Assembly: GCF_024223415.1 (NCBI RefSeq)
Contig: NZ_CP100500.1
From: Escherichia coli
Lineage (GTDB): Bacteria > Pseudomonadota > Gammaproteobacteria > Enterobacterales > Enterobacteriaceae
Length of the DNA: 64,000 nt
Strand: one strand, 5' to 3'
Shown here: one piece after another, positions 48,001 through 51,000 of the stretch
Position numbering within the stretch: the stretch's first letter is position 1
Layout of the letters: each line of letters opens with the position of its first letter
Position numbers: made by a program

Positions 48001-51000
48001 TAGCCTGCCATCACGCCAAGATGCCAGCGATCCTGCGCGTTGCTACTCCACTGCGCCAAATCGCCGCCTAGCTGCAATACATAGCGGTTAGCCTGAGTAT
48101 TTAGCTGGCCGTCTCCGGCACTGGAACGTTCGTGCCCCCCGACATGACGCATCCACATACTGCTTGCTGAACCCTGAGAATGCAGTGAATCTGTATATTG
48201 CGGCTCACCCAGACGGTCGTGTAAGCGATGGCTAAACAGCGAGTTGGCTGCGGCAATGTTGCTGATATAGCTTCCGGCCTCCGGGCGATAAACTGATGGG
48301 TAATGTTGCCTGTGCCTGTTTCTTTCATTCCCGCAGTGATAATTCCCGAATCTACTTTGCCTTCACGCGAGACATTAAGTTCACCGTCGCCAGCATCACC
48401 GATATAGATATAGCGGAAAGCTTCGCCCGTTCCGAGGAAATCCCAATGCCCTTTATCGGTCACGTTGACGACACCGTGGGAACCGTCCTGAACGCCCACC
48501 AATGAATATTCTTTGTTATTAATTAGTCCATTATTGGAAATATTGACTGCGCCATTACCGAAATATCCATTATAGAGTCTGCGTACCGTGATGACAGAGT
48601 CTTGATCCTGCACATTCAGGGTTCCGACACCGGTGGCATTGCCACCGATAATCGTATTTTCAGCCGTAATCAGCCCACCCTCGCGAATAGTCGCCTCCCC
48701 AGTTCCTTGATTACCAATTTGAAATTCAATTGAGGAATCATTATTTTTTATTAGCCACTCGCCACCCTTTTCAACGACAACCTTACCATTACTGTTCGCT
48801 TGATATCCTAAAATGGCGACTATTGAACTCGTGACGTAACCCTTATCCGTAATATTTAATGAGCCCGTACCGTAACTCCCTATTTCGAATAATTCGGTCG
48901 TCAAAACCGAGTCCTCTCCTTCAACATTAACCGTCCCGACGCCTGCAGCTTGAGTACCTAATCTTAAATAGCCTCCATCGACGTGACCCTTCTGTTTAAT
49001 ATTCAGCGTCCCCGTTCCGGATTGACCCACATTTAAAGGCCTTGCATTATTTCCGCTATCATACAATCGCCAGGTGCCACCCAAAACATTAACGGTACCC
49101 TCCGAATCCTCATTACCGCCAATGACGCTGGTAGTAATAGTGGTTAAGGAGGCATTACCGCCAGCCAAAATATTAAGCACTCCAGTGCCATACCAGCCAA
49201 CCAGGTAGGCATCATAAGCAACATCAGTATCAATATTGGTAATCTGACCATTATCAACTTCCAGACTCGCACCAGACACTGAACCGCTTAGTGCCAGCAA
49301 AACACCCAGCGTCAATCTACTGAATTTCGTTGTCAGTCCAGAGGATTTTCGCAAATTAACCGTTGATGTTTTACCTACCCTGCGAGTTAATTCCGAGCAG
49401 GCCTGAAATACCTGTAGAGTGCAATTCCATATCACGCGATAGATTCTATTCATATAAACGCTCCATATACAAACAATACAGCCACGAAAGAGATGAGTCG
49501 CCAGACATTAAAAATGAAACTTATTAAATTGTCAGAGGTCTGTATTGAGTGTTAGTTGGAGGTGGGAAGGTGTCAATTTGGCTAATTTGCTAATGCTTTC
49601 GAATTGATAGATTAAAAATTGCATAGTTCTTATTTTATTTAAAAATGAACTATGAGTTATTGTTGCTTAATAAGAAAACTGTTTCTTTCAATAGGAAAAT
49701 TATCATCATCATATTTAACAAAGAATAGCACTAATTGCTAAAAATCGAAGTTTATTAAACCCCTTTTTCATCCATTAATGCCTTTAGGAATATTCGCTAT
49801 AAAATAAGGGTTATGCTTAATGCTTTAAGAAAAATAGCAATTTTCCCTTGAATATAGTACTGGTGATGAAACGATGAATCTGCAAGCTGGCATTTAACAA
49901 GCCAGTTCTAAAAACAATACTTAAAAACTAACAGCCACGGTCATCATGATGTGGCTGTCAATGAAACTATAACCCAGGCGCTTTCCATAACGACGTCGTC
50001 AGTCCATGATCAACCAGCCCCAGCTGATCCTGATAAACCGCCTGCCACTTATCGCGTGAATCCTGATAAAGTTCATGCTTTTCCGGGTCTGGTGTGTGCG
50101 TCCGTTCCCAGCGAACCAGGCGTTCTCCGGTTTCTGCCATTGATGAAAAAATTCCGGCACCGACGCCAGCTGCAATGGCACATCCTAATGCAGTGGCTTC
50201 TTTGACCACCGGAATATTGACGGGTAATCCCGAGACATCAGCGAGAATTTGACTCCATAATTTCCCTTTTGAACCTCCGCCTGCAAAGACTAACGATGAA
50301 GGATGAATATTCGAAAAATCAGCAATTTGCTGCAAGTTACACGCTGATACAATCGCCGCATTTTCTTCCAGCGCACGGAACAATGTCGCTTTGTTACATT
50401 TATCCGGGTCAATGGACAAATTAATAAAGGAAGGCGCAGCGTGATACCAGGTTTTAAAGCGCATTCTGTCGGAGAAGATCGGCATTACGCCCCACGACCC
50501 AGGCGGCACCCGACTGGCCATCTCTTCCAGCAGCGTATAGGTGTCGATGCCTAAACGTTCGGCAATCAGTTTTTCTTCGGCACAGAAAGCATCGCGGAAC
50601 CAGCGCATGGTGAGTCCGGTAAAAAAGCTTATAGATTCAGCTTGTACCATGCCAGGAATAACATGAGGATTAACGCGCACGTTCATTTCTGGGTCTGTCA
50701 CCGGCGCGGCTAAATTTACAACTTGCTGCCAGAATGTGCCGCCAAGAACCGCGGTTTGTGCCGGACGCACAACGCCTAACCCCAGGCAACCAAGCTGCAC
50801 GTCGCCTCCTCCAACGACCACCGGAGTGCCCACCTTCAGACCGCAGAGTTCCGCCGCTTGTGAACTTACCACGCCCAGCAATGTGCCGGTTTCTTTGACA
50901 GGAGAAAGAATATCGGCACGCAGGCCAGCCATATCCAGCAATGCAGGTTTCCAGTCACGGATGGTTAGATCAAGAAGTCCCGTGGTGCCAGCGTTAGAGG

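What the first reader, a model, noticed from the sequence alone, without database searches (positions are those of the whole stretch)
49454..49966. 513 bp AT-rich ORF-free spacer upstream of the autotransporter pseudogene
The spacer between the autotransporter start and the lsrK terminator has no ORF of 60 aa or more on either strand and is markedly AT-rich with homopolymeric A/T runs. It resembles an H-NS-silenced promoter region. It could also hold an unannotated small RNA or small protein. From memory the K-12 gene at this position (yneO) is much longer, so locus architecture may differ between strains.
Basis: partly seen in the sequence, partly recalled or inferred. Interest (0 to 1): 0.3.

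Follow-up and report, generated by a model that had tools for sequence, protein, structure and literature searches.

The report
Known regulatory spacer upstream of autotransporter
This is the ordinary, already charted AT-rich control region between the E. coli quorum-sensing kinase gene lsrK and an often-broken adhesin-type autotransporter gene; it holds lsrK's terminator, the autotransporter's promoter region and a perfect binding site for the antibiotic-stress regulator MarA, and I found no sign of a hidden gene.

Summary
Window 49454-49966 is a 513-bp spacer with 31.4% GC, the lowest-GC stretch of that length in the window, and no ORF of 60 aa or more. It is the E. coli yneO(ydeK)/ECSE_1600-autotransporter to lsrK intergenic region, found in 4229 of 5426 complete genomes.

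It contains:
- the lsrK intrinsic terminator (49927-49962 plus a U tail);
- the autotransporter's Shine-Dalgarno sequence and leader;
- several sigma-70-like hexamer pairs, including the one printed in a published RNA-polymerase SELEX study, which also flags H-NS binding in this spacer;
- at 49728-49742, an exact copy of the consensus marbox. In ETEC H10407 this same site is a published MarA ChIP-seq peak and binds purified MarA at the lowest concentration tested.

The autotransporter-proximal 290 bp evolves at about half the neutral rate. The lsrK-proximal 175 bp evolves at about the neutral rate and is indel-prone; this window carries a rare 17-bp deletion there.

Nothing supports a small RNA or small protein. 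There is no credible Rfam match, no promoter-plus-terminator unit, and the short ORFs lack ribosome-binding sites and vary mostly at the amino-acid level.

Verdict: real, ordinary and already known.

The parts
49454..49966 (.). yneO(ydeK)/ECSE_1600 autotransporter to lsrK intergenic spacer, 513 bp, 31.4% GC
   Evidence: Same locus in 4229 of 5426 complete E. coli genomes. The K-12 version is 530 bp.
49919..49962 (-). lsrK intrinsic terminator: hairpin 49962..49927 (core GACAGCCAC/GUGGCUGU) followed by a U-rich tail (AGUUUUUAAGUAUUG)
   Evidence: Fold of -18.2 kcal/mol, z = -2.8 against shuffles. Sequence. Almost invariant across strains, pi 0.0055.
49725..49744 (+). Marbox (MarA/SoxS/Rob site) ATAGCACTAATTGCTAAAAA. 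The 15-bp core at 49728-49742 equals the published consensus gcactaattgctaaa. Its centre is 282 bp upstream of the autotransporter ATG and 232 bp beyond the lsrK stop.
   Evidence: Scores 19.2 of a possible 19.3 bits on a matrix built from the 32 other published MarA ChIP sites; the next best site in the window scores 13.2. The H10407 ChIP-seq peak centre maps to window 49720 and the MEME site centre to 49736. In-vitro binding was '+++' and the site is the paper's stated consensus. It is exact in 60 of 72 homologous spacers, and 11 more carry high-scoring variants.
49507..49535 (-). Sigma-70 promoter-like pair CTGACA-17-TTTAAT, printed for yneO in the RpoD genomic-SELEX table; it implies a TSS near 49500
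   Evidence: (paper), located in the window. This is a best-match prediction, not a mapped start, and the -10 lacks the A at position 2.
49548..49576 (-). Alternative promoter-like pair TTGACA-17-AACACT (perfect -35, poor -10); it implies a TSS near 49541
   Evidence: Top-scoring pair in my hexamer scan. Unverified.
49461..49464 (-). Shine-Dalgarno GGAG, 7 nt before the autotransporter ATG (49453..49451)
   Evidence: The leader 49454-49500 is nearly invariant, pi 0.011.
49746..49920 (.). Weakly constrained, indel-prone distal third. This window lacks 17 bp (GAAGGGAAATAAGAATA) after about 49913 that K-12 and most strains have.
   Evidence: pi 0.066 against 0.056 at lsrK four-fold sites. Alignments. 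Only 18 of 4229 records are 99% or more identical to the window allele.
49967..51559 (-). lsrK (autoinducer-2 kinase), right-hand flank
47310..49453 (-). Remnant of the ECSE_1600-family autotransporter gene (left-hand flank): a 3277-bp frameshifting internal deletion with its junction at about 48300

Best explanation
The spacer is the composite regulatory region between two same-direction genes. Its right-hand 45 bp is the Rho-independent terminator that ends the lsrRK transcript. The rest is the upstream control region, promoter(s) and leader of the ECSE_1600/YneO autotransporter gene.

The DNA is AT-rich, dense in promoter-like hexamers, and reported to bind RNA polymerase holoenzyme (sigma-70 and sigma-S) and H-NS in vitro. 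This is the usual signature of a horizontally acquired, H-NS-coated adhesin promoter that is mostly off.

A consensus-perfect marbox sits 282 bp upstream of the ATG and binds MarA in vivo and in vitro in a strain with the same site.

Inferred step: MarA, and probably its paralogues SoxS and Rob, act from this distal site as an upstream activator or H-NS antagonist, tying autotransporter expression to the mar stress response. In this particular window the target gene is dead, so the region is a retained but functionally orphaned control region.
For: Identity and synteny.

Terminator: (z = -2.8), invariant.

RpoD SELEX site with an H-NS flag in the yneO<lsrK spacer. RpoS SELEX site.

AT-richness is extreme for the window. 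Promoter-like pairs are 5-6 times denser than the window average.

Marbox: exact consensus, 19.2 of 19.3 bits and 6 bits above anything else in 64 kb. The ChIP-seq peak and EMSA '+++' are, and the peak maps onto the window marbox. The site is conserved in 71 of 72 spacers at 17 bits or more.

Constraint: proximal 49454-49745 has pi 0.029, the leader 0.011 and the terminator 0.0055, against a neutral benchmark of 0.056 at lsrK four-fold sites and 0.066 in the distal third. The block 49705-49731 next to the marbox is invariant in 56 haplotypes.

Shine-Dalgarno GGAG lies 7 nt from the ATG.
Against: I could reach no mapped transcription start, so every promoter here is a sequence prediction. The hexamers printed in the SELEX table have a -10 (TTTAAT) that lacks the near-essential A at position 2. 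The tool's stricter scan found only 1 promoter-like site in 49200-50200, against 3.0 expected from shuffles.

The SELEX signal is weak (0.05). Its peak coordinate, 1596530, would map near window 49875 if it is in MG1655 U00096.2 numbering. That is my assumption, and it would place the peak about 350 bp from those hexamers.

The marbox has no canonical class I or class II geometry relative to any TAnnnT hexamer on either strand, so the regulatory outcome is unknown.

The H-NS evidence is one in-vitro SELEX flag. The high-affinity H-NS motif TCGATAAATT is matched only with 2 mismatches. I found no expression data showing MarA or H-NS control of yneO.

Diversity estimates rest on 8 strains and ignore recombination.
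Confidence: 0.75

Rival explanations
1. The marbox is a high-affinity but regulatorily inert (or decoy) site, and most of the spacer is neutral AT-rich DNA that arrived with the horizontally acquired autotransporter. Only the terminator, core promoter and leader would be functional.
For: No class I or class II geometry. The site lies 282 bp from the ATG, whereas most MarA peaks lie within 100 bp of a gene start. The gene is a pseudogene in K-12, O157, H10407 and this window, so selection on its regulation should be weak. The distal third evolves neutrally.
Against: An exact 15/15 consensus is unlikely to arise or persist by chance. It is kept, or replaced by variants scoring 17-18 bits, in 71 of 72 spacers, and it is flanked by a 27-bp block that is invariant in 56 haplotypes. 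The proximal spacer evolves at about half the neutral rate.
Confidence: 0.15
2. The marbox controls a promoter inside the spacer that fires on the plus strand, away from the autotransporter and antisense to lsrK. Alternatively, MarA represses a spacer promoter by sitting between its -35 and -10 elements.
For: A plus-strand pair TTAACA-18-(TG)cTAAAAA at 49715-49744 brackets the marbox, and other plus-strand pairs lie downstream of it. The plus-strand copy of the lsrK hairpin has no U tract, so such a transcript would read into lsrK antisense.
Against: The candidate -10 lacks the conserved final T, and the alternative AAAAAT is destroyed in many strains because positions 49745-49746 are highly variable. 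Promoter-like pairs are expected in bulk in 27-31% GC DNA. No lsrK or yneO 3' ends appear in the held part of the published 3'-end supplementary files.
Confidence: 0.07
3. The spacer hides an unannotated small RNA or small-protein gene.
For: Several ORFs of 20-30 codons stay open in most strains. For example, 49532-49624(-) is intact in 70 of 72 spacers and 49645-49728(+) in 71 of 72. The proximal spacer is under some constraint.
Against: The best Rfam hits are 10-21 bits against thresholds of 36-80, with E of 0.95 or more. There is no terminator within the spacer other than lsrK's, and the leader folds no better than shuffles. None of the short ORFs has a usable Shine-Dalgarno sequence, and they show 10-21 distinct protein products among 72 sequences, meaning the changes are mostly non-synonymous. 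Nothing is annotated there in K-12 RefSeq.
Confidence: 0.03

Closest known systems
MarA/SoxS/Rob-regulated promoters with a marbox (e.g. marRAB, micF, ycgZ-ymgABC, grxA/ybjC)
   Same: The core is identical to the consensus used by Sharma et al. 2017 and differs by one base from the ycgZ and grxA/ybjC sites. It has the same in-vivo ChIP-seq signal and the same high-affinity class in vitro.
   Different: The site lies 282 bp upstream of the ATG, and no -10-like hexamer sits at the class I (about -62/-72, backward) or class II (about -42, forward) distances. Those class definitions are from my knowledge of Martin et al. 1999. No transcriptional effect on this gene has been reported in the papers I could search.
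H-NS-silenced, AT-rich promoters of cryptic E. coli adhesin and autotransporter genes (general knowledge: K-12 adhesins such as yeeJ, ycgV and ypjA are cryptic under laboratory conditions)
   Same: Strongly AT-rich upstream region, a dense set of promoter-like hexamers, an in-vitro H-NS binding flag, and a surface-adhesin-type gene that is frequently a pseudogene.
   Different: Silencing itself (derepression in an hns mutant, or a ChIP signal) was not verified for this locus. The consensus H-NS nucleation motif is only weakly matched.
Rho-independent terminators of E. coli operons
   Same: A GC-rich hairpin 4 nt after the lsrK stop codon followed by a U-rich tail. It is invariant across strains.
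   Different: The U tract is interrupted (AGUUUUUAAGUAUUGUUUUUAG) and the loop is long, so the simple scanner did not call it.

Membership tests
Marbox (MarA/SoxS/Rob binding site) | Match to the asymmetric consensus (AYnGCACnnWnnRYYAAAY; 15-bp core gcactaattgctaaa) | tested here: met
   15/15 match to the published core. It scores 19.2 of 19.3 bits on a matrix built without this site. The 20-mer ATAGCACTAATTGCTAAAAA misses only the last Y.
Marbox (MarA/SoxS/Rob binding site) | Protein binding in vivo and in vitro | not testable with these tools
   Published for ETEC H10407: a ChIP-seq peak and EMSA binding at 0.3 uM. I showed that the peak maps onto the same site, in a spacer with 502 identical columns, 11 substitutions and the 17-bp gap relative to the window's.
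Marbox (MarA/SoxS/Rob binding site) | Class I or class II position and orientation relative to a core promoter | tested here: not met
   No TAnnnT hexamer lies at the expected distances on either strand. The nearest are at -33.5/-44.5 (backward orientation) and -77.5 (forward orientation). No mapped TSS was available.
H-NS-silenced promoter region | AT-rich tract well above the genome average | tested here: met
   31.4% GC, with a 27% core, against 48% for the window. It is the lowest 513-bp stretch in the window.
H-NS-silenced promoter region | H-NS occupancy | not testable with these tools
   The spacer is marked 'HNS' in the genomic-SELEX tables. The H-NS ChIP supplementary files I tried are not held as text.
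H-NS-silenced promoter region | Derepression of the downstream gene when hns is removed | not testable with these tools
   yneO is absent from the hns-mutant expression tables I could read.
Intrinsic (Rho-independent) terminator | Stable GC-rich hairpin directly followed by a U tract, downstream of a stop codon | tested here: met
   Fold of -18.2 kcal/mol, z = -2.8, followed by AGUUUUUAAG, starting 4 nt after the TAG.
Small regulatory RNA gene | Own promoter plus own terminator, a conserved structure or an Rfam family | tested here: not met
   No Rfam hit near its threshold. No second terminator. No entry in the held part of the published 3'-end supplementary files.
Small protein gene | Start codon with a ribosome-binding site and purifying selection on the peptide | tested here: not met
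   No Shine-Dalgarno sequence upstream of any ORF of 20-30 codons. There are 10-21 distinct products per ORF among 72 sequences.

The most novel reading that the evidence does not exclude
The perfect marbox, placed far upstream in H-NS-bound DNA and outside class I/II geometry, could be a MarA-dependent counter-silencing switch, or the driver of an unmapped long-leader promoter. Either would put a large adhesin-type autotransporter under the multiple-antibiotic-resistance stress regulon. That would add a surface-adhesion output to mar, and would be a MarA mode of action that does not depend on the usual contact geometry with RNA polymerase.
Probability: 0.15. Interest if true: 0.4.

Novelty: already known. 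Interest (0 to 1): 0.13.

Why it matters
It matters little beyond annotation. The locus is a standard AT-rich, probably H-NS-coated adhesin control region, and its one specific feature, the MarA site, is already in the literature.

The only open question of some value is what MarA does from a consensus site 282 bp upstream of a gene that many strains have inactivated. If it acts as an anti-silencer, that would link the mar antibiotic-stress response to surface adhesion in strains that keep the gene intact (e.g. SE11, HS, SCU-316).

Tried and rejected
1. Rfam with permissive thresholds over 49000-50400 gave only chance-level hits such as OmrA-B at 17 bits against a threshold of 40.

2. Small ORFs: all ten ORFs of 20 or more codons were examined in 72 homologous spacers. 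None behaves like a gene.

3. H-NS nucleation motif TCGATAAATT: only 2-mismatch matches in the spacer, which is not informative.

4. One genome-contig scan with the autotransporter N-terminus, meant to reach other species, returned only two contigs. They look like E. coli-type contamination in a Nanosynbacter MAG and a Marinomonas assembly, so nothing was learned about conservation outside E. coli.

5. TSS, 3'-end and H-NS datasets:
- Thomason 2015 is not held.
- The Cappable-seq GTF is cut before 1.6 Mb.
- Conway 2014, Kahramanoglou 2011 and Ueda 2013 have no supplementary files held as text.
- Kim 2012 has only an orthologue-table row for lsrK (b1511), with no TSS for this locus.
- Adams 2021 has no yneO or lsrK entry.
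- Forrest 2022 lists lsrK only, as not H-NS-bound with log2FC 0.77.
- The Sharma 2017 supplementary file has no extra data on this site.

6. I first read the minus-strand ORFs at 45511-47117 as autotransporter fragments. BLAST showed they are hipA and hipB, and that the autotransporter carries a large deletion.

7. Covariation analysis of RNA structure was not attempted because diversity (pi about 0.03) is too low to give it any power.

Full report
OBSERVATION. The stretch 49454-49966 lies between the ATG of a minus-strand autotransporter ORF (49453) and the TAG of minus-strand lsrK (49967-49969). It is 513 bp with 31.4% GC against 48.0% for the window. Only 0.09% of all 513-bp windows are that low, and the core 49560-49860 is 27% GC. 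No ORF reaches 60 aa, and the longest stop-free stretch is 44 aa. That is expected for this composition, since 62% of shuffles show the same. A/T runs are modest: 8 runs of 5 against 3.2 expected (P about 0.01), and none longer than 5. Its striking part is the base composition, not the lack of ORFs.

IDENTITY. Megablast places the region in 4229 of 5426 complete E. coli genomes, always between an 'ECSE_1600 family autotransporter' and lsrK. In K-12 MG1655 it is the 530-bp gap between the pseudogene yneO (formerly ydeK/ydeU) and lsrK, with nothing annotated inside it. The window allele is identical to strain SCU-316 and is rare: only 18 records are 99% or more identical. It differs from K-12 by a 17-bp deletion near 49913 and about a dozen substitutions, nearly all in the lsrK-proximal third. 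ECSE_1600 was first described in strain SE11 as an 1806-aa pertactin-motif autotransporter. It is absent from the group B2 strains examined and truncated in MG1655, E24377A and O157 Sakai.

ANATOMY, RIGHT END. The right end is the lsrK terminator. It is a hairpin at 49962..49927 followed by AGUUUUUAAGUAUUG, with a fold energy of -18.2 kcal/mol and z = -2.8. It is almost invariant across strains, with pi 0.0055.

ANATOMY, LEFT END. The left end has a GGAG Shine-Dalgarno sequence 7 nt before the ATG and a nearly invariant 47-nt stretch, pi 0.011. Shimada et al. 2014 (PMC3946193) list an RpoD-holoenzyme genomic-SELEX site in this yneO<lsrK spacer, mark it 'HNS' (spacer contains an H-NS binding site), and print the hexamers CTGACA-17-TTTAAT. 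I located these at 49535..49507 on the minus strand. The companion study (PMC5493296) lists an RpoS-holoenzyme site in the same spacer.

CAVEATS ON THE PROMOTER. The hexamers are a best-match prediction whose -10 lacks the key A at position 2. The SELEX signal is weak (0.05). The peak coordinate, 1596530, would map near window 49875 if it is in U00096.2 numbering, which is my assumption. My own hexamer scan finds promoter-like pairs 5-6 times denser here than in the window overall, on both strands. That is typical of AT-rich DNA and means sequence alone cannot single out the real promoter.

THE MARBOX. At 49728-49742 (+) the sequence is GCACTAATTGCTAAA. Sharma et al. 2017 (PMC5684230) report a MarA ChIP-seq peak in ETEC H10407 assigned to yneO with exactly this site, with binding of purified MarA at the lowest concentration tested. 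They use this same 15-mer as 'the consensus marbox'. I fetched the H10407 locus. The ChIP peak centre maps to window 49720 and the MEME site centre to 49736, in a spacer that matches the window's at 502 columns, with 11 substitutions and the 17-bp gap. A weight matrix built from the 32 other published sites gives this site 19.2 of a possible 19.3 bits. The next best site anywhere in the 64-kb window scores 13.2.

CONSERVATION OF THE MARBOX. I compared 72 homologous spacers, made up of the window and 71 other sequences (68 from one metagenome scan anchored on the terminator, plus three already-held E. coli genome loci), giving 56 distinct haplotypes. The site is exact in 60 of them. Eleven carry variants that still score 17-18 bits, and one of those variants is identical to the grxA/ybjC marbox. 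One sequence drops to 11.7 bits. The adjacent block 49705-49731 is invariant in all 56 haplotypes.

CONSTRAINT. Among 8 diverse strains, pi is 0.056 at lsrK four-fold degenerate sites. It is 0.029 in the spacer's proximal 49454-49745 and 0.066 in the distal 49746-49920, where all the length variation (17-, 6- and 3-bp indels) also lies. The autotransporter-proximal 290 bp therefore looks moderately constrained, and the distal 175 bp looks close to neutral. The sample is small and recombination is ignored, so this is only indicative.

HOW IT PROBABLY WORKS. Three things are shown, either directly or in the literature: a terminator for lsrRK, in-vitro binding of RNA polymerase holoenzyme and H-NS somewhere in the spacer, and MarA binding at the marbox. 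From these I infer that the AT-rich tract is an H-NS-coated, mostly silent promoter region for the autotransporter, and that MarA (likely also SoxS and Rob) modulates it.

The geometry is not canonical. No TAnnnT hexamer lies at the class I or class II distances in the right orientation. The closest are at -33.5/-44.5 with the box backward and at -77.5 with it forward. The class definitions come from my knowledge of Martin et al. 1999. The site is also 282 bp from the ATG, whereas most MarA peaks lie within 100 bp of a gene start. My preferred reading is therefore an upstream activator or H-NS antagonist, or else an unmapped promoter with a leader of about 200 nt. I hold this step with modest confidence. 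An inert high-affinity site, or control of a plus-strand transcript, remain possible. In this window the target gene is broken, so any such regulation has no functional gene to act on.

SMALL RNA OR SMALL PROTEIN. Rfam gives nothing credible. The only terminator is lsrK's, and on the plus strand that hairpin has no U tract, so no promoter-to-terminator unit exists inside the spacer. The candidate leaders fold no better than shuffles. The ten ORFs of 20-30 codons lack ribosome-binding sites and show 10-21 protein variants each among 72 sequences. The supplementary text held for a published E. coli 3'-end map has no yneO or lsrK entry. I rate this reading at about 3%.

LOCUS ARCHITECTURE. K-12 yneO is 5422 bp with a single-base insertion at gene position 3954 relative to the intact 5421-bp SCU-316 gene. 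In the window, BLAST shows a 3277-bp internal, frameshifting deletion with its junction at about 48300. This leaves a 2144-bp remnant at 47310-49453, directly followed by hipB (46833-47099) and hipA (45511-46833). None of the 5426 complete genomes has this junction. The spacer is also a recurrent breakpoint for mobile elements:
- IS1 sits inside the lsrK terminator stem in strain 2018-11-3CC, at the position of about window 49951-49959.
- An IS1-associated deletion in EC102 leaves only 49518-49621.
- A TnAs1 junction lies at 49767 in ST540.
- An unrelated sequence replaces everything left of 49724 in one metagenomic contig.

VERDICT. This is a real but ordinary feature whose components are already in the literature. 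The interpretation as an H-NS-type promoter region is supported at the level of published in-vitro binding. The sRNA or small-protein idea is not supported. The MarA site is the only point of interest, and its regulatory output remains untested.

LIMITS. No TSS or H-NS ChIP data could be retrieved. The single genome-collection scan gave no non-E. coli orthologues.

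Noticed in passing
window 47310-49453 (junction at about 48300): The autotransporter gene carries a 3277-bp internal frameshifting deletion relative to the intact SCU-316 gene. None of 5426 complete E. coli genomes has this junction (best coverage 50%). It could be a private deletion between passenger-domain repeats or an assembly collapse.
   Followed up: partly
window 45511-47099: The minus-strand ORFs just left of the autotransporter remnant are hipA (45511-46833) and hipB (46833-47099), not autotransporter fragments as the ORF list might suggest.
   Followed up: yes
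L009 2178-2945 (corresponds to window ~49951-49959): In strain 2018-11-3CC an IS1 sits inside the lsrK terminator stem, with a 9-bp overlap in the flanking matches that looks like a target duplication. LR883012 also has an IS1 in the spacer. The effect on lsrK termination and on read-through into the autotransporter is unknown.
   Followed up: partly
L010 3001-3105; L011 3468/3469: Other rearrangement breakpoints fall inside the spacer. EC102 keeps only window 49518-49621, between a truncated autotransporter and an IS1, with lsrK through lsrF deleted. ST540 has a TnAs1 fragment joined at window 49767.
   Followed up: partly
L075 3880-4735: One metagenomic contig keeps lsrK, the distal spacer and the marbox. 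Immediately left of the marbox (window 49724) it continues into unrelated AT-rich DNA with only short ORFs, possibly an alternative island at this site. It is about 95% identical to the window over the shared part.
   Followed up: no
L012, L013: The only genome-contig hits to the autotransporter N-terminus were a contig in a 'Candidatus Nanosynbacter' MAG (97% identity) and an 832-bp contig of 'Marinomonas sp. SBI8L' (88%). Both look like Escherichia contamination of those assemblies.
   Followed up: no
window 49913/49914: The 17-bp deletion (GAAGGGAAATAAGAATA in K-12) marks a rare allele. Among 72 aligned spacers the window is the only one with it, and only 18 of 4229 genome records are 99% or more identical to the window over 49300-50100.
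   Followed up: yes
window 23186-24010, 33565-34480, 34592-35600, 44386-45090: Four other stretches reach 32-33% GC in 513-bp windows and may be further AT-rich, possibly H-NS-bound, segments. They were not examined.
   Followed up: no
window 48000-49453: The 5' part of the autotransporter gene is much more variable between strains than lsrK. pi at codon positions 1/2/3 is 0.042/0.032/0.072 for the autotransporter against 0.003/0.003/0.048 for lsrK, consistent with relaxed or diversifying selection on the passenger domain.
   Followed up: partly
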